From the sequence record NC_001730.1: a DNA stretch of 6,089 bases; one strand, 5' to 3'. A program made the position numbers and the translations under genes. This DNA comes from Escherichia phage phiK. How positions within the stretch are numbered: the first letter of the stretch is position 1; each line of letters starts with the position of its first letter. The notes below the pieces were generated by a model, which saw only the letters and a program-made list of their open reading frames with translations, searched no databases and was not told the DNA's origin. This document shows positions 4 to 6,089 of the stretch, one piece after another.

Positions 4-31
4 TTGACATTCCCCAATTCCTTATTAGACT
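4..31 (+). promoter_or_regulatory. Candidate sigma70-type promoter upstream of ORF1 (TTGACA N16 TAGACT)
   Basis: Perfect -35 hexamer TTGACA at 4-9, 16-nt spacer, -10-like TAGACT at 26-31 (4/6 to TATAAT). Lies about 30 nt upstream of the AGGAG/ATG of the 64..432 ORF. Motif match only. Confidence 0.25.
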
Positions 32-63
32 CTTGCTTCAACGAAACGAATCAGGAGTCTTTT

Positions 64-432
64 ATGAAGCCCGCTCACTGTCTTACTCATCCCGTACTTG
101 GTTCATGGTTTTTTAAGTGTCCCGTTTATATCCGTTATGAGCACCTTCATCACGGTCGTCTTATCAAGGTTCGCGCTGTTCGTGATTTGTCCCCGCGTCA
201 GCAGCTTATTGCTAACCCTAAAAATTGCTTTGACGTTGTTATTGCTGAGATTGATGTTACTTATGGCTCCATTACTTGGTTTGACTATGAGCATGAGGAG
301 TATGATGAGTTTGAGCCTGATGTTATAAATGGCCTCGTTAACTATATTGATATTCCTCACGTCATTCGTTCTGAGGAAGACCCTACTGTTTCTGTTGATG
401 ATATGGATTGGCTTTATGAAATTGCGGAGTAA
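64..432 (+). CDS. Hypothetical protein (about 122 aa), basic His/Cys-containing N-terminal half and strongly acidic C-terminal half; first ORF of the H-A spacer module
   Basis: ATG 64 preceded by AGGAG at 53-57 (6-nt spacing); stop TAA 430-432. Third codon positions are about 55-60% T by hand count, the same bias as canonical microvirus genes. No similarity to proteins A-H that I can recognise. Confidence 0.5.
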   Translation: MKPAHCLTHPVLGSWFFKCPVYIRYEHLHHGRLIKVRAVRDLSPRQQLIANPKNCFDVVIAEIDVTYGSITWFDYEHEEYDEFEPDVINGLVNYIDIPHVIRSEEDPTVSVDDMDWLYEIAE

Positions 433-435
433 ATT

Positions 436-525
436 ATGGAGACTGTTATCGGAAAATTTATTGCTCTGGCTGTTGTTGCTTTTATGCTGTATGGAATTAC
501 CCGCTTAATTTTGAGGTTCCCGTGA
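436..525 (+). CDS. Hypothetical 29-aa hydrophobic peptide (METVIGKFIALAVVAFMLYGITRLILRFP), predicted single transmembrane helix
   Basis: ATG 436 lies 3 nt after the ORF1 stop, with GGAG at 426-429 (6-nt spacing); stop TGA 523-525. Hydrophobic core FIALAVVAFMLYGI flanked by K7 and R23/R27. Same frame as ORF1. Too short for codon statistics to be decisive. Confidence 0.35.
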   Translation: METVIGKFIALAVVAFMLYGITRLILRFP

Positions 526-734
526 AGTATTTTAGTTTGGTTGATGAACATTATGCTTATTGCCCTGATACGAGGATTTTGCACATTACTCGCAGTCGTG
601 TTTCTGACCCTCGCTACGAGCGTTGCTTTCTTACTGATGAGGAGCATTTTGCGCTATTGGATTGGTTGAAAAACCGTCCAACTTGCGTTAATTCTTGGCA
701 ATCTTCTGAAATACCCTCTATATTGCCCTCATAG
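522..734 (+). CDS. Hypothetical protein (about 70 aa), GTG-initiated, translationally coupled to the upstream peptide ORF
   Basis: GTG 522-524 overlaps the TGA stop of the 29-aa ORF (GTGA); GAGG at 513-516 (5-nt spacing); stop TAG 732-734. No in-frame ATG exists, so the start must be non-ATG if the ORF is real. Third-position T about 50% by hand count. Confidence 0.4.
   Translation: MKYFSLVDEHYAYCPDTRILHITRSRVSDPRYERCFLTDEEHFALLDWLKNRPTCVNSWQSSEIPSILPS
695..724 (+). promoter_or_regulatory. Candidate gene A promoter (PA-like): TTGGCA N18 TATATT
   Basis: -35-like TTGGCA at 695-700 and -10-like TATATT at 719-724, 18-nt spacer. The predicted start site falls inside the downstream hairpin. phiX174 has its PA promoter in the equivalent H-A spacer. 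Motif match only. Confidence 0.3.
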
Positions 735-754
735 TTTCACTACGAGGGCTTTTT
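725..754 (+). terminator. Hairpin plus T5 run, intrinsic-terminator-like, at the end of the spacer module immediately upstream of gene A
   Basis: GCCCTC (725-730) pairs with GAGGGC (744-749); an inner 3-bp helix TAG(732-734)/CTA(740-742) leaves a 5-nt loop; followed by TTTTT 750-754. The 3' arm contains the GAGGG Shine-Dalgarno of gene A. Confidence 0.45.
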
Positions 755-2955: not shown

Positions 2956-3030
2956 ATGAAAAAAGCACGTCGTTCTCCTAGTCGTCGTAAAGGTGCTCGC
3001 CTCTGGTATGTAGGCGGTTCTCAGTTTTAA
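2956..3030 (+). CDS. J: Gene J protein, small basic DNA-binding/packaging protein, 24 aa
   Basis: ATG 2956, stop TAA 3028-3030. MKKARRSPSRRKGARLWYVGGSQF shares the C-terminal KGARLWYVGG.QF with phiX174 J. The short 24-aa form is characteristic of the G4/alpha3 group. Absent from the ORF track only because of length. Confidence 0.9.
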   Translation: MKKARRSPSRRKGARLWYVGGSQF

Positions 3031-3032
3031 TT

Positions 3033-3062
3033 ATGGGCCTTCGGGCCCCTTAAGGATTATTA
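3033..3062 (+). promoter_or_regulatory. J-F intercistronic hairpin (GGGCC-TTCG-GGCCC) plus AAGGA ribosome-binding site for F
   Basis: GGGCC 3035-3039 pairs with GGCCC 3044-3048 across a TTCG tetraloop; AAGGA 3052-3056 sits 6 nt before the F ATG. phiX174 has a comparable GC hairpin in its J-F spacer (TJ terminator / mRNA-stabilising element). Confidence 0.5.
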
Positions 3063-4358
3063 ATGTCTAATGTACAAACTTCAGCTGAACGTGAAATTGT
3101 TGACCTCTCTCATCTTGCTTTTGACTGTGGCATGATTGGTCGCTTGAAAACTGTTTCATGGACTCCTGTTATCGCTGGCGATTCCTTTGAGCTTGATGCT
3201 GTTGGTGCTTTGCGTCTTTCTCCTCTGCGTCGTGGTTTAGCCATTGATTCTAAGGTTGACTTTTTCACTTTCTATATTCCGCATCGTCATGTTTATGGTG
3301 ATCAGTGGATTCAATTTATGCGTGATGGTGTTGATGCTTCGCCGCTTCCTTCCGTTACTACTACTAAGTATCCGGATGATGCTGGTTATGTTGGTACTAT
3401 TGTTCCTAAGAGCAACCGTATTCCTAAGTTTTTGCATCAGTCTTATCTGAATATTTATAATAACTATTTCCGTGCGCCGTGGATGCCTGAGCGTACTGAA
3501 GCTAATCCTTCAAACTTAGATCGTGATGATTCTCGTTATGGATTCCGTTGTTGCCATCTTAAAACTATTTGGTCTGCTCCTCTTCCTCCGGAAACTAAGC
3601 TCGCTGAGCAAATGGGCATTGAAAGCAATTCCATTGATATTATGGGTTTGCAGGCCGCTTATGCGCAGCTTCACACTGAGCAGGAGCGTACTTATTTTAT
3701 GCAGCGTTACCGTGATGTTATCTCCAGCTTTGGCGGTTCAACCTCCTATGATGCCGATAACCGACCGTTGCTTGTTATGCATACCGATTTTTGGGCTTCC
3801 GGTTACGACGTTGACGGTACCGACCAATCTTCCCTTGGACAGTTTTCGGGGCGAGTTCAACAGACGTTTAAACACTCAGTGCCGCGATTCTTCGTGCCTG
3901 AGCATGGTGTCATGATGACTTTGATGCTGGTTCGCTTCCCGCCTATCAGTCCTTTGGAGCATCATTATCTTGTTGGTCGTAATAATTTGACTTATACCGA
4001 CCTTGCTGGTGACCCGGCTTTGATTGGTAATTTGCCGCCGCGTGAGATTTCTTATCAGGACCTTTTCCGTGATGGTCGCCCGGGCATTAAGATTAAGGTT
4101 GCCGAGTCTATCTGGTATCGTACTCATCCGGATTATGTTAACTACAAGTATCAGTTACTTGAGGGTTTCCCGTTCCTTGATGATGCGCCCGGTACGACTA
4201 GTGGTGATGACCTTCAGAAGGCTATTCTCATTGACCATAATGACTATAATGCCTGTTTCCAGTCTCAGCAGTTGCTTCAGTGGAATAATCAGGCTCGTTA
4301 TAATGTTAATGTTTATCGCCATATTCCTACTGTTCGTGATTCTATTATGACCTCTTAA
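3063..4358 (+). CDS. F: Gene F protein, major capsid protein, 431 aa
   Basis: ATG 3063, stop TAA 4356-4358. Extensive identity to phiX174 F: MSN.QT.AER, TPVIAGDSFE.DAVGALRLSPLRRGLAIDS, YGFRCCHLK, IDIMGLQAAYA, SGYDVDGTDQ.SLGQFSGRVQQT, LPPREIS, QLLQWN, TRDSIMTS. Confidence 0.97.
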   Translation: MSNVQTSAEREIVDLSHLAFDCGMIGRLKTVSWTPVIAGDSFELDAVGALRLSPLRRGLAIDSKVDFFTFYIPHRHVYGDQWIQFMRDGVDASPLPSVTTTKYPDDAGYVGTIVPKSNRIPKFLHQSYLNIYNNYFRAPWMPERTEANPSNLDRDDSRYGFRCCHLKTIWSAPLPPETKLAEQMGIESNSIDIMGLQAAYAQLHTEQERTYFMQRYRDVISSFGGSTSYDADNRPLLVMHTDFWASGYDVDGTDQSSLGQFSGRVQQTFKHSVPRFFVPEHGVMMTLMLVRFPPISPLEHHYLVGRNNLTYTDLAGDPALIGNLPPREISYQDLFRDGRPGIKIKVAESIWYRTHPDYVNYKYQLLEGFPFLDDAPGTTSGDDLQKAILIDHNDYNACFQSQQLLQWNNQARYNVNVYRHIPTVRDSIMTS

Positions 4359-4361
4359 TTC

Positions 4362-4391
4362 ATGGGCCTTCGGGCCCATTAAGGATTTTTT
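4362..4391 (+). promoter_or_regulatory. F-G intercistronic hairpin (ATGGGCC-TTCG-GGCCCAT) plus AAGGA ribosome-binding site and T6 run
   Basis: 7-bp stem 4362-4368/4373-4379 with TTCG tetraloop; AAGGA 4381-4385; TTTTTT 4386-4391 directly before the G ATG. 27/30 identical to the J-F module at 3033-3062. Confidence 0.5.
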
Positions 4392-4955
4392 ATGTATCAA
4401 ATTTTTGTTACTAAGCATGATACCGCCATTCAGACCTCCCGTTTTTCTGTTACTGGCAGTATCACTCCTGTTGCGCCTACTGGTAATATCCCTGTTATCA
4501 ATACTGGTAATATTACTGCTGAGCATGCTGTTGTTAGTCTTTATGCTAATTTGACTGCTGGCACCTCTTCTGATGGTTCTTTTATTGTTGCTATGAAGGT
4601 TGACACTTCTCCTGCTGACCCCAATTGCGTTATCTCTGCTGGTGTTAACCTTAGTTTTGCTGGTACCTCATACCCGATTGTTGGCATTGTTCGTTTTGAG
4701 TCTGCTTCTGACCAGCCCACTTCTATTGCTGGTAGCCAGATTGAGCATTACCCAATTGAAATGTCTGTAGGTTCTGGTGGTGTTTGTTCTGCTCGCGATT
4801 GCGTTACTGTTGATATTCATCCTCGCGCTTTTGGCAATAATGTTTTTGTTGGCGTGATTTGTTCTAGTGCTAAATGGACCTCCGGTCGTGTGCTTGGTAC
4901 CATCGCTACGACTCAGGTTATTCGTGAGTATCAGGTCCTTCAGCCGCTTAAATAA
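4392..4955 (+). CDS. G: Gene G protein, major spike protein, 187 aa
   Basis: ATG 4392, stop TAA 4953-4955. Matches phiX174 G in conserved blocks: VRFES, KDCVT.D..PR..GNNV.VG and C-terminal L.QVI.E...LQPLK. Confidence 0.95.
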
Positions 4956-5090
4956 AAGGCCGCCGCACTCCTGGTTATGTGTCTGCCCAGTGTAGGGCGG
5001 ACCGAGCCATACGGAGATACCCGATAAACTAGGAACGTGGAAGGCGTTAGCCGCCTTCCCTCCTGCTAAGCCCAAAAAGGAGCTTACAAT
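4956..5090 (+). other. Structured GC-rich G-H intergenic region; candidate complementary (-) strand origin recognised by DnaG primase
   Basis: 135-nt non-coding spacer (I recall about 11 nt in phiX174) with two stable hairpins: 4981-5002 (GTCTGCCC/GGGCGGAC, 6-nt loop, one G-U pair) and 5039-5059 (GGAAGGCG/CGCCTTCC, 5-nt loop). Ends with the H SD AGGAG at 5078-5082. G4-type phages carry a primase-dependent origin in a hairpin-rich spacer between late genes. Assignment here is by analogy. Confidence 0.4.
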
Positions 5091-6089
5091 ATGCTTGGTA
5101 GTATCATTGGAGGCATTGGTTCATCGCTGCTCGGAGGAATTGCTTCCGGCGGTATCTCCAGCCTCCTTAATAAAATGTTCAGTAAAATGCCAGAACATGC
5201 CGCCTCTTCTGCTGGCCTTACTAATGGTCAAGGTACTATTGGTATGGATACTGATGCTGGTATTCAGTCTGCTATTCAGGGTTCTAATGTTCCTCCTGCT
5301 GGTCAATTGCCCGCTTCTAATACTTCTGGTGTTATGGCTGATGCTGGTAATATGATTCGTAATGCTGGTAGAGCTTTGCTTGATGGTACGATTCAGGCTG
5401 GCTCTGATAAGGTTAAAGAGGCTCTTATTGATAAGTTGGTTGGAGGTAATGATGCTAAAGACCGAGGAAAGGCAACCCGTGATTACTTGGCAGCGGCTTT
5501 CCCTGAGCTCAACCCGTGGGAGCGTGCTGGAGCTGGTGCTTCCACTGCCGGGTTAGAGTCTTCTGCTCAGAATCAACAAAAAGAGATGCTTAAAATGCAA
5601 CTGGATAACCAGAAGGATATTGCTAAGATGCAGATGAATAACAATTTGCAGATTGCTGGAATTCAGTCCGCTACATCTCGTCAAAATACGAAGGATTCTG
5701 TTTATGCCCAGAATGAAATGCTTCAGTATAATCAACGTGAGTCGCAGGCACGCGTTGCGTCTATCCTCGCCAACACTGACCTTACGACTAAGCAGGCCAC
5801 CCATGAAATTATGAGGATGGCTCTTACTCGTGCTCAGGAAACTGGTCAGCATTTGACTAACTCTCAGATTATGGCTTTGGAGAAAAAGGTTTATGCAGAA
5901 ATTGGAAAAATTCATCAAGATACTCAAAATTCTCGTTATGGTAGCTCTCAAGTTACTGCCGCAGCGAAAGACGTTACGAATATGATTACTGACGCCTCTT
6001 CAGGTCTTGCTGATTGGGCCTCCCAGCAGTGGGATTCGTTCTTTAAGGATGGCAAGTCTGATGGCATTCCTCTCAATACTAGAAAATAA
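5091..6089 (+). CDS. H: Gene H protein, minor spike / DNA pilot protein, 332 aa
   Basis: ATG 5091 (AGGAG 5078-5082), stop TAA 6087-6089. Matches phiX174 H: glycine-rich N-terminus, SAIQGSNVP, TRDYLAAAFPELN.WERAGA, KMQLDNQK, IAGIQSATSRQNTKD.VYAQNEML, ARVASI, QNSRYGSS, KDGK.DGI. Confidence 0.95.
   Translation: MLGSIIGGIGSSLLGGIASGGISSLLNKMFSKMPEHAASSAGLTNGQGTIGMDTDAGIQSAIQGSNVPPAGQLPASNTSGVMADAGNMIRNAGRALLDGTIQAGSDKVKEALIDKLVGGNDAKDRGKATRDYLAAAFPELNPWERAGAGASTAGLESSAQNQQKEMLKMQLDNQKDIAKMQMNNNLQIAGIQSATSRQNTKDSVYAQNEMLQYNQRESQARVASILANTDLTTKQATHEIMRMALTRAQETGQHLTNSQIMALEKKVYAEIGKIHQDTQNSRYGSSQVTAAAKDVTNMITDASSGLADWASQQWDSFFKDGKSDGIPLNTRK

What the first reader, a model, noticed from the sequence alone, without database searches (positions are those of the whole stretch)
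64..432. ORF1 has a bipartite charge: His/Cys-containing basic N-terminal half and hyper-acidic C-terminal half
Residues 1-56 carry nine Lys/Arg, five His and three Cys (HCLTH..KCP..HLHHG..NCF), which could form a metal-binding or nucleic-acid-binding patch. The last 66 residues carry about 20 Asp/Glu against one Arg (EIDVTYGSITWFDYEHEEYDEFEPDV...EEDPTVSVDDMDWLYEIAE). An acidic, aromatic-studded tail of this kind recalls DNA-mimic anti-restriction proteins and acidic protein-interaction tails. The functional reading is speculative.
Basis: inference. Interest (0 to 1): 0.55.

Follow-up and report, generated by a model that had tools for sequence, protein, structure and literature searches.

The report
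Unannotated dipolar accessory protein, alpha3-like microvirus
The charge-split ORF is a real, conserved gene found only in alpha3-like relatives of phiX174 and missing from the classical gene map; it has no known relatives and its function is still unknown.

Summary
ORF1 (64-432, 122 aa) has a basic N-terminal half (+7) and a strongly acidic C-terminal half (-19). Only 5 of 20,000 shuffles segregate charge this well, and all 20 known homologue clusters keep the pattern.

The window is a complete alpha3-like microvirus (Bullavirinae, Alphatrevirus). ORF1 is the first of three tightly packed ORFs filling the 757-nt gap between genes H and A; phiX174 has 63 nt there and G4 has 58 nt.

It is a genuine gene. 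It is intact in 12 of 13 GenBank relatives, dN/dS is 0.19 (0.07 in the basic half) against more than 1.2 in shifted frames, its codon bias matches the capsid genes, and its Shine-Dalgarno site is conserved. The reference alpha3 sequence lacks one C, which breaks the ORF and probably explains why it was never annotated.

- The His/Cys "metal site" is not conserved.
- The acidic half is folded, not a disordered tail.
- There is no relationship to Ocr or ArdA.

A polyanionic decoy or host-interaction role remains possible but unproven.

The parts
4..31 (+). Sigma-70-like promoter candidate (TTGACA, 16 nt, TAGACT) directly after the gene H stop codon and upstream of ORF1
   Evidence: Consensus scan, 10 of 12 matches. 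TTGAC of the -35 hexamer is invariant in all 14 aligned genomes, while the spacer varies. The -10 is weaker in relatives (GAGACT). Function not shown.
53..57 (+). Shine-Dalgarno sequence AGGAG, 6 nt upstream of the ORF1 ATG
   Evidence: AGGAG is kept in 13 of 14 aligned genomes, and GGAGTC is invariant in all 14. The 1989 alpha3 record M25640 already marked this position as a ribosome-binding site, without a CDS.
64..432 (+). ORF1: 122-aa protein (stop at 430-432), the subject of the finding; a real gene specific to Alphatrevirus
   Evidence: Intact at 122 codons in 12 of 13 GenBank relatives. dN/dS 0.19 in frame against 1.25 and 1.76 in shifted frames. Third-position T of 0.59, like genes F, G and H. 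AlphaFold pLDDT 85.9, pTM 0.78.
64..231 (+). Basic N-terminal half (residues 1-56): four-strand beta-meander, short helix and the invariant ANPKNC loop; the most constrained part
   Evidence: Net charge +7, pI about 10. dN/dS 0.066. Residues 31-60 are almost invariant while synonymous divergence is 0.3-0.57. Strands 3-9, 13-17, 21-28, 33-40 and helix 44-49.
232..429 (+). Acidic C-terminal half (residues 57-122): folded beta-beta-beta-alpha-beta unit carrying 20 Asp/Glu
   Evidence: Net charge -19. Strands 57-64, 69-73, 78-82, helix 85-95, strand 104-110. The acidic character is retained in all homologues, including P0020.
316..363 (+). Variable segment (residues 85-100): helix and following loop, where the allelic types differ most
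   Evidence: Sliding-window dN/dS 0.62-0.86. Tree-based counting gives omega 0.52 with no site showing a significant excess of non-synonymous change.
394..429 (+). Conserved acidic/aromatic C-terminal tip (VDDMDWLYEIAE) with low model confidence
   Evidence: Block pLDDT of 67 and 51 for the last residues. D113, Y118 and E119 are invariant even in the 35%-identical P0020. dN/dS 0.13-0.31.
436..525 (+). ORF2: 29-aa hydrophobic single-span peptide, starting 3 nt after the ORF1 stop
   Evidence: Present in all relatives at 28-30 aa, and about 90% identical even in L015. No family match.
522..734 (+). ORF3: small conserved protein (58 aa in relatives, 70 aa here), overlapping the ORF2 stop by 4 nt
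695..724 (+). Promoter candidate for gene A (TTGGCA, 18 nt, TATATT; TTGACA in relatives)
   Evidence: Consensus scan, 10 of 12. Conserved in relatives except NC35, which has a 29-nt deletion here.
725..754 (+). Hairpin (725-749) plus U-run (750-754), the first terminator-like structure downstream of gene H, just before the gene A start at 758
   Evidence: RNA fold -14.2 kcal/mol, z = -5.0, no shuffle of 200 folds as well. Both stem arms are conserved in relatives.

Best explanation
SHOWN: ORF1 is a genuine protein-coding gene. It is the first gene of a three-gene accessory module (ORF1, ORF2, ORF3) that fills the gap between genes H and A in alpha3-like microviruses (Alphatrevirus) and is absent from phiX174-like and G4-like phages. 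It encodes a compact, beta-rich protein with a conserved, extreme charge dipole. The basic N-terminal half is nearly invariant. The acidic C-terminal half keeps its charge but tolerates sequence change.

INFERRED: ORF1 is an abundantly made, probably non-essential cytoplasmic factor that binds a host protein, possibly a defence protein. The invariant basic beta-sheet with the ANPKNC loop would give specific recognition. The acidic, aromatic-studded domain and tip would present a polyanionic, nucleic-acid-like surface that occupies the nucleic-acid-binding site of its target. In other words it would work as a decoy or inhibitor without being a member of any known DNA-mimic family.
For: That it is a gene:
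- The ORF is intact in 12 of 13 relatives and all are 122 codons with no indels.
- dN/dS is 0.19 in frame against 1.25 and 1.76 out of frame.
- Codon bias matches the capsid genes, and the RBS is conserved.
- No Rfam RNA family matches, and synonymous sites diverge freely, so the conservation is not a DNA-level constraint.

That it is an accessory gene:
- It is confined to ~6-kb alpha3-like phages. There is no hit in 185,579 bacterial and archaeal genomes, none in other phages by six-frame search, and only 3 clusters among 1.84 billion representatives.
- phiX174 and G4 have only 63 and 58 nt between H and A.
- The St-1 record carries a 1-nt deletion in codon 55.

That charge matters more than sequence in the acidic half:
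- The dipole is kept in every homologue, including the 35%-identical P0020, while residues 85-100 evolve at omega of about 0.5-0.9.

Cassette-like behaviour:
- In contig L015 the neighbours H, ORF2, ORF3 and A are 81-90% identical to the window, but ORF1 is only 34% identical.
- The L024 allele looks like a recombinant of two allelic types (by inspection).

Fold:
- The protein is folded rather than disordered (pLDDT 85.9), and the independent BFVD model of the Lilleven orthologue superposes at TM 0.96.
- The acidic half's charge density is comparable to that of Ocr (PMC3439906).
Against: - There is no experimental or homology-based evidence for any partner or activity.
- No positive selection was detected at any site, so an arms race is not demonstrated.
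- The whole protein (net -12) is far less acidic than classical DNA mimics, and nearly half of it is basic.
- This genome has no EcoKI or EcoBI sites, so type I anti-restriction in K-12 or B hosts would be unnecessary.
- An ssDNA phage must form its double-stranded replicative form before any phage protein can be made, which makes early anti-restriction awkward (inference).
- The extreme invariance of residues 31-60 would fit binding to a conserved phage component or nucleic acid equally well.
- Only 2 of the 5 AlphaFold models were confident.
Confidence: 0.3

Rival explanations
1. Nucleic-acid-binding regulator or replication accessory factor. The basic N-terminal beta-sheet binds phage DNA or RNA, for instance near the adjacent gene A promoter/attenuator or on single-stranded progeny DNA. 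The acidic half autoinhibits binding or recruits a partner, in the manner of proteins that combine a basic DNA-binding domain with an acidic tail.
Confidence: 0.2
2. Component of a membrane-associated module, together with the 29-aa transmembrane peptide ORF2 and ORF3, that mediates superinfection exclusion, competition between phages, or modulation of lysis timing.
For: ORF1, ORF2 and ORF3 are packed as one unit (3-nt gap, then a 4-nt overlap) and always occur together in that order. ORF2 is a conserved single-span hydrophobic peptide. All three are confined to the same phage group. The gene behaves as an accessory gene.
Against: ORF1 has no hydrophobic segment or signal peptide (sequence). 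ORF2 and ORF3 are 88-90% conserved in L015 while ORF1 is replaced by a 34%-identical allele, which argues against tight co-adaptation between ORF1 and its neighbours. There is no similarity to any known exclusion or lysis protein.
Confidence: 0.15
3. Morphogenetic or packaging helper: an acidic chaperone for the very basic DNA-packaging protein J or for pilot protein H, needed because alpha3-like phages package a genome about 12% larger than phiX174's.
For: The gene sits directly after gene H with no terminator-like structure in between, so it is probably on the late transcripts. Its codon bias is like that of the structural genes. The acidic surface could neutralise a polybasic partner (inference).
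Against: No extra protein has been reported in alpha3 particles or procapsids (my own knowledge of the alpha3 structural literature, not checked here). An essential assembly factor would not tolerate the St-1 frameshift or a 34%-identical replacement while H stays 85% identical.
Confidence: 0.08
4. Metal-binding (zinc-ribbon-like) protein using the His and Cys residues of the N-terminal half.
For: This genome's protein has 5 His and 3 Cys in residues 1-56.
Against: Only Cys55 is invariant. Cys6 is unique to this genome. Cys19 is Arg in P0020. His5 is Tyr in WA13 and WA45, His9 is Ile in P0018, and His27, 29 and 30 vary. The model shows a beta-meander, not a knuckle or ribbon. No zinc-finger Pfam hit.
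Confidence: 0.03
5. Not a gene: a chance ORF in a non-coding H-A spacer that is conserved for DNA-level reasons such as a replication, incompatibility or transcription signal.
For: Most GenBank and RefSeq records, and a 2026 paper on an alpha3-like isolate, annotate nothing here.
Against: Substitutions concentrate at third codon positions (43, 34 and 96 variable columns at positions 1, 2 and 3). dN/dS is 0.19 in frame and above 1.2 in the other frames. There are no indels among 12 intact relatives. Synonymous sites are 30-57% diverged where the protein is invariant. The missing annotation traces to a one-base error in the original alpha3 sequence.
Confidence: 0.02

Closest known systems
Ocr (T7 gp0.3) and ArdA, the DNA-mimic anti-restriction proteins
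   Same: Small, phage- or mobile-element-encoded and aspartate/glutamate-rich. The C-terminal 66 residues of ORF1 have a net charge per residue (-0.29) similar to Ocr (34 negative and 6 positive side chains in 116 residues, PMC3439906). Charge rather than exact sequence appears to be what is retained.
Other small acidic phage inhibitors that imitate nucleic acid (for example Ugi, SAUGI, T7 gp5.9, lambda Gam)
   Same: Comparable size, acidic surface and accessory status. As a class they have no common sequence or fold (PMC3902945), so lack of homology is not disqualifying.
Non-essential accessory protein K of phiX174-type phages
   Same: A small protein of a bullavirus outside the essential replication, assembly and lysis set, with no established molecular mechanism.
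   Different: K is a short hydrophobic protein encoded by an overlapping frame across the A/C junction and is present in all three genera. ORF1 is soluble, non-overlapping, lies between H and A, and is restricted to Alphatrevirus. ORF2 resembles K more than ORF1 does.
Proteins with a basic nucleic-acid-binding domain plus an acidic tail (HMGB1, bacterial SSB, T7 gp2.5)
   Same: Basic and acidic parts are segregated along the chain, and there is a conserved acidic/aromatic C-terminal tip of low structural confidence.
   Different: The acidic part here is mostly a folded domain rather than a flexible tail. The tip ends in ...YEIAE rather than the hydrophobic C-terminal residue of SSB-type tips (sequence compared with my own knowledge of SSB). 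No OB or HMG fold is detected.

Membership tests
Genuine protein-coding gene (as opposed to a non-coding H-A spacer) | The open reading frame is preserved across diverged relatives without frame-breaking indels | tested here: met
   122 codons in 12 of 13 GenBank relatives and in all 19 full-length metagenomic clusters (120-154 aa). The exceptions are one-base lesions in the St-1 record and in the old alpha3 sequence.
Genuine protein-coding gene (as opposed to a non-coding H-A spacer) | Purifying selection specific to the reading frame | tested here: met
   dN/dS 0.19 in frame against 1.25 and 1.76 in shifted frames; variable columns 43, 34 and 96 at codon positions 1, 2 and 3. Tree-based counts agree.
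Genuine protein-coding gene (as opposed to a non-coding H-A spacer) | Translation signals and codon usage like the phage's known genes | tested here: met
   Conserved AGGAG 6 nt before the ATG. Third-position T of 0.59 compared with F 0.56, G 0.66 and H 0.50. Actual expression was not measured.
Ocr family (T7 gp0.3) | Sequence or profile similarity to Ocr | tested here: not met
   The only Pfam match at E <= 1 is a sub-threshold DUF3880 hit. hhalign of the family profile against T7 Ocr gives probability 0.2% over 3 aligned columns.
Ocr family (T7 gp0.3) | Strong acidity along the whole chain (34 negative and 6 positive side chains per 116 residues, PMC3439906) | tested here: not met
   The whole protein has 22 negative and 10 positive side chains. 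Only residues 57-122 reach Ocr-like density (20 negative, 1 positive).
ArdA family | Sequence similarity to the ArdA family, or fold similarity to a solved ArdA structure | tested here: not met
   [not shown]
DNA-mimic proteins (a functional class, not a homologous family) | Surface carboxylates arranged like DNA phosphates, and competitive binding to the DNA site of a DNA-binding protein | not testable with these tools
   Model coordinates and electrostatics were not available, and no partner is known. The class has no shared sequence or fold (PMC3902945), so the negative homology results do not decide this.
Zinc ribbon or other Cys/His metal site | Three or four metal ligands conserved across the family | tested here: not met
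   Only Cys55 is invariant. Cys6 is unique to the window. Cys19 is Arg in P0020. His5 is Tyr (WA13, WA45), His9 is Ile (P0018), and His27, 29 and 30 vary.
Canonical Bullavirinae gene set (A, A*, B, C, D, E, F, G, H, J, K) | Homology to, or positional equivalence with, one of the eleven classical genes | tested here: not met
   All classical genes are found elsewhere in the window. ORF1 matches no microvirus Pfam family. The corresponding gap is only 63 nt in phiX174 and 58 nt in G4.
Known anti-phage defence proteins (PADLOC) and PHROG phage families | Profile match | tested here: not met
   No PADLOC, PHROG or NCBIfam match at E <= 1 for ORF1, and none in PADLOC or NCBIfam for P0020. No dedicated anti-defence profile library was available.

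The most novel reading that the evidence does not exclude
ORF1 is the first anti-defence or host-takeover protein identified in a phiX174-type ssDNA phage. It would be a new-fold, dipolar decoy whose acidic domain imitates nucleic acid to neutralise a host DNA- or RNA-binding defence or repair protein. It would be carried in a three-gene accessory module that helps account for the distinct host range reported for alpha3-like phages.
Probability: 0.2. Interest if true: 0.75.

Novelty: new variant of a known kind. Interest (0 to 1): 0.5.

Why it matters
phiX174-type phages are among the most completely annotated genomes in biology, and textbooks give them eleven genes.

This analysis shows that one of the three genera carries a conserved, selected three-gene module that is missing from the reference annotation. 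The reason appears to be a one-base error in the original alpha3 sequence, followed by annotation transfer.

ORF1 has no sequence relatives outside this small phage group and no structural neighbour in the PDB or the BFVD viral library, and it has an unusual conserved charge dipole.

If it proves to be a host-interaction or anti-defence factor, it would open the largely unexplored question of how tiny ssDNA phages deal with host immunity. With only 6 kb of genome and easy synthesis, it would also be a very tractable test system.

If it has no phenotype, the result is still a useful correction to the Alphatrevirus gene map.

Tried and rejected
- **Profile libraries.** Pfam, PHROGs, NCBIfam and PADLOC scans of ORF1, ORF2 and ORF3 (P0020 also in NCBIfam and PADLOC) gave nothing above noise.
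- **PDB by sequence.** A profile search found nothing; the best hit was E = 0.73 to a xylanase.
- **Large protein searches.** The word-indexed search of 5.8 billion clusters and the exhaustive HMM search of 1.84 billion representatives returned only alpha3-like phage proteins. Adding the divergent P0020 to the profile found no new members.
- **Contig scans.** IMG/VR, metagenome and GTDB genome scans gave only ~6-kb microviruses and no bacterial copy. A six-frame search of 50,697 phage genomes returned only the same 25 records.
- **Ocr.** hhalign against T7 Ocr was negative.
- **Positive selection in the variable helix.** Not found. Omega was about 0.5 and no site was significant, so I dropped arms-race wording as a demonstrated fact.
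- **Restriction-site avoidance.** As a test of anti-restriction this was uninformative. EcoKI and EcoBI sites number 0 against about 0.7-0.8 expected in a 6-kb genome.
- **Structured RNA.** No Rfam match in the window.
- **Literature.** Eight full-text searches found no paper describing the ORF. Rokyta et al. 2006 (the source of most relatives) could not be read, and Kodaira et al. 1992 was not looked up.

Full report
**What the window is.** The 6089-nt window is a complete genome of an alpha3-like microvirus (Microviridae, Bullavirinae, Alphatrevirus). It carries the classical genes in the classical order: A (758-2242) with B nested inside it, K and C, D with E nested, J, F (3063-4358), G (4392-4955) and H (5091-6089). 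Over positions 1-760 its nearest GenBank relative is coliphage ID21 at 89% identity. Twenty-four further records match at 81-87%: WA13, WA45, ID32, NC28, ID62, NC3, alpha3, St-1, NC29, NC35, Lilleven and a dog-faeces genome. The finding lies in the 757 nt between the stop of H (6089) and the start of A (758). In phiX174 that gap is 63 nt and in G4 it is 58 nt, so the region is an addition specific to this genus.

**The observation.**
- Residues 1-56 hold 4 Lys, 5 Arg, 5 His and 3 Cys, with only 1 Asp and 1 Glu.
- Residues 57-122 hold 10 Asp and 10 Glu, with one Arg and no Lys.
- With the best split after residue 53 the halves carry +7 and -19.
- Only 5 of 20,000 shuffles of the same residues segregate charge this strongly.

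The pattern is inherited rather than accidental. All 19 aligned family members show about +8 / -17, and a homologue only 35% identical (P0020) shows +6 / -14.

**It is a real gene.**
- Thirteen distinct relatives were fetched. In twelve the ORF is intact at exactly 122 codons with no indels.
- Substitutions pile up at third codon positions (43, 34 and 96 variable columns). Pooled pairwise dN/dS is 0.19 in the ORF1 frame, against 1.25 and 1.76 in the two shifted frames.
- Third-position T content (0.59) matches the structural genes F, G and H (0.50-0.66).
- AGGAG lies 6 nt before the ATG and is conserved.
- No Rfam family matches. Synonymous sites are 30-57% diverged exactly where the protein is invariant, so the conservation is not at the DNA level.

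**Why it is not on the gene map.** The original alpha3 sequence (M25640, carried into X60322 and RefSeq NC_001330) lacks one C in a TTTCCCCGCG run at codons 43-44, which breaks the frame. The re-sequenced alpha3 (DQ085810.2) is intact. The 1989 record marked ribosome-binding sites here but no CDS. The 2005-2006 coliphage genomes annotate only the classical genes, and a 2026 paper on an alpha3-like isolate still lists only those. Only Lilleven (three "hypothetical proteins") and an unverified metagenomic record annotate the region. The St-1 record has a one-base deletion in codon 55. By eye, the differences from Lilleven downstream of it look mostly silent, so it is either a very recent lesion or an error.

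**Context.** ORF1 is followed 3 nt later by ORF2, a 29-aa hydrophobic peptide (436-525). ORF3 (522-734; 58 aa in relatives) overlaps the ORF2 stop by 4 nt. The order H, ORF1, ORF2, ORF3, A holds in every contig examined. ORF3 homologues are likewise confined to these phages.

A promoter-like site with a conserved -35 element (TTGACA in most genomes) sits at 4-31, and a second one sits at 695-724 in front of gene A. The first terminator-like structure after gene H is a strong hairpin with a U-run at 725-754. I infer that ORF1-3 are transcribed with, or just after, the late genes. This is not shown.

**How far the family reaches.** A search of 5.8 billion protein clusters returned 19 proteins, all at least 70% identical and mostly on contigs of about 6 kb. 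An exhaustive profile search of 1.84 billion representatives found three clusters, including one truly divergent member, P0020 (E = 1e-15). Re-searching with P0020 in the profile added nothing. IMG/VR gave 12 loci and the metagenome scan gave 4, all alpha3-like. A scan of 185,579 bacterial and archaeal genomes gave none, and a six-frame search of 50,697 phage genomes gave only the same 25 records. Pfam, PHROGs, NCBIfam, PADLOC and PDB sequences gave nothing significant.

**The divergent allele.** P0020 sits on a 1962-nt contig (L015) whose H, ORF2, ORF3 and A are 85, 90, 88 and 81% identical in protein to the window's, while ORF1 is 34% identical. Nucleotide similarity vanishes between about codon 22 and codon 114 of ORF1. 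Another allele (L024) looks, by inspection, like a recombinant between two common types. ORF1 therefore behaves as an exchangeable cassette inside a conserved backbone.

**Pattern of constraint.**
- Residues 1-65 evolve at dN/dS of 0.14 or less, and residues 31-60 (GRLIKVRAVRDLSPRQQLIANPKNCFDVVI) are almost invariant.
- Helix 85-95 and the loop after it run at 0.6-0.9.
- The tail returns to 0.13-0.31.
- Counting changes on a tree gives 0.07, 0.22, 0.52 and 0.22 for residues 1-65, 66-84, 85-100 and 101-122. No site has a significant excess of amino-acid change.

So the acidic domain is under relaxed, composition-preserving constraint. Positive selection is not demonstrated. Residues conserved even in P0020 include H5, P10, G13, W15, F17, K18, P20-V21-Y22, R40-D41-L42, R45, A50-N51-P52-K53-N54-C55, D74, R102-S103, D113 and Y118-E119.

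- *Metal site.* Only Cys55 is invariant. Cys6 is unique to this genome, Cys19 is Arg in P0020, and the histidines vary. Not supported.
- *Acidic tail.* It is mostly a folded domain.
- *Ocr or ArdA membership.* Tested and not met.
- *DNA mimicry as a mode of action.* Cannot be decided here. The class has no common sequence or fold (PMC3902945). The acidic half matches Ocr's charge density (PMC3439906), but the protein as a whole does not. The genome has no EcoKI or EcoBI sites, though only about 0.7-0.8 are expected by chance.

**Most likely mechanism.**
- *Shown:* a real, lineage-restricted, cassette-like gene encoding a folded dipolar protein. That it is dispensable rests only on the St-1 lesion.
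- *Inferred, at roughly 30% confidence:* it is a cytoplasmic binder or inhibitor of a host protein. The invariant basic sheet and ANPKNC loop would give specificity, and the acidic domain and tip would act as a polyanionic decoy.
- *Rivals:* a nucleic-acid-binding regulator (about 20%), part of a membrane-linked exclusion or lysis-timing module with ORF2 and ORF3 (about 15%), or an assembly or packaging helper (about 8%).
- The metal-site and "not a gene" readings are effectively excluded. The remaining probability belongs to functions not listed.

**Novelty and score.** The ORF already exists in databases as an unnamed hypothetical protein (Lilleven QBZ71502.1; UniProt A0A4D6DYX2). Its reality, its restriction to one genus, its charge dipole, its orphan fold and the reason for its omission have not been described in any text I could search. 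I file it as a new variant of a known kind: a small acidic phage accessory protein, here in a microvirus, with a novel architecture. The family and fold have no known relatives, and the function is open. Interest is 0.5.

Noticed in passing
window 436-525 and 522-734: Two further conserved, unannotated ORFs follow ORF1: a 29-aa single-span hydrophobic peptide, and a 58-aa protein (70 aa here) modelled as four strands plus a helix. Both are confined to alpha3-like phages and have no family match. All three ORFs together fill the H-A gap.
   Followed up: partly
window 695-700: In relatives the ORF3 stop codon TGA (696-698) lies inside the -35 hexamer TTGACA of the promoter-like site before gene A. 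This genome has G instead of A at 698. That single change turns TGA into TGG, lengthening ORF3 by 12 residues that are modelled as disordered, and turns TTGACA into TTGGCA.
   Followed up: partly
L003 (M25640) 1266-1630 compared with L011 (DQ085810.2) 66-434; also X60322 and NC_001330: The original alpha3 sequence, still the RefSeq record, lacks one C in a C-run at ORF1 codons 43-44, which breaks the ORF. The re-sequenced alpha3 is intact. This is a likely reason the gene never entered the Alphatrevirus gene map.
   Followed up: yes
L012 (St-1, GQ149088), ORF1 codon 55: A single-base deletion (TGC to TG-) disrupts ORF1 in the St-1 record. The sequence after it still looks coding, with differences from Lilleven that appear mostly silent by eye. 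It is either a recent laboratory lesion, which would imply the gene is dispensable, or a sequencing error.
   Followed up: partly
L015 820-1209 (Logan SRR20337160): An alpha3-like contig whose H, ORF2, ORF3 and A are 81-90% identical to the window's but whose ORF1 is only 34% identical. Nucleotide similarity is lost between about codons 22 and 114. This is a cassette-like replacement from an unsampled lineage.
   Followed up: partly
L032 2811-3275, L033, L034 (P0007; also P0015): Some 6.2-6.3-kb relatives encode a 154-aa ORF1 with a 32-residue acidic N-terminal extension that also begins MKP. The usual Met1 is replaced by Phe or Ser, which suggests an insertion or duplication at the 5' end of the gene.
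   Followed up: no
L014 (NC35), region aligned to window 702-730: NC35 has a 29-nt deletion that removes the -10 element of the gene A promoter-like site and the left arm of the hairpin before gene A. This implies that gene A there is transcribed through ORF1-3 from upstream.
   Followed up: no
window 3026-3066 and 4355-4395: A 41-nt direct repeat (85% identical) follows gene J and gene F. Each copy contains the hairpin GGGCC-TTCG-GGCCC followed by TTAAGGATT and the next gene's ATG. These are probably the J and F terminators combined with ribosome-binding sites.
   Followed up: no
window 4956-5090: The G-H intergenic region is GC-rich and folds as single-stranded DNA better than any of 200 shuffles (-24.9 kcal/mol, z = -3.0). 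It may be the complementary-strand origin, which in G4 lies between F and G. That assignment rests on my memory of the alpha3 literature and was not checked.
   Followed up: partly
whole window: GATC is strongly depleted (2 sites against about 23 expected) and CCWGG is also low (3 against 8), while CAGCAG is enriched (10 against 2.5). There are no EcoKI or EcoBI sites.
   Followed up: no
[not shown]
   Followed up: partly
P0019 (211 aa, on a 706-nt ENA contig): The first 85 or so residues match ORF1, followed by about 125 unrelated residues. It is probably an assembly chimera or a frameshifted read-through.
   Followed up: no
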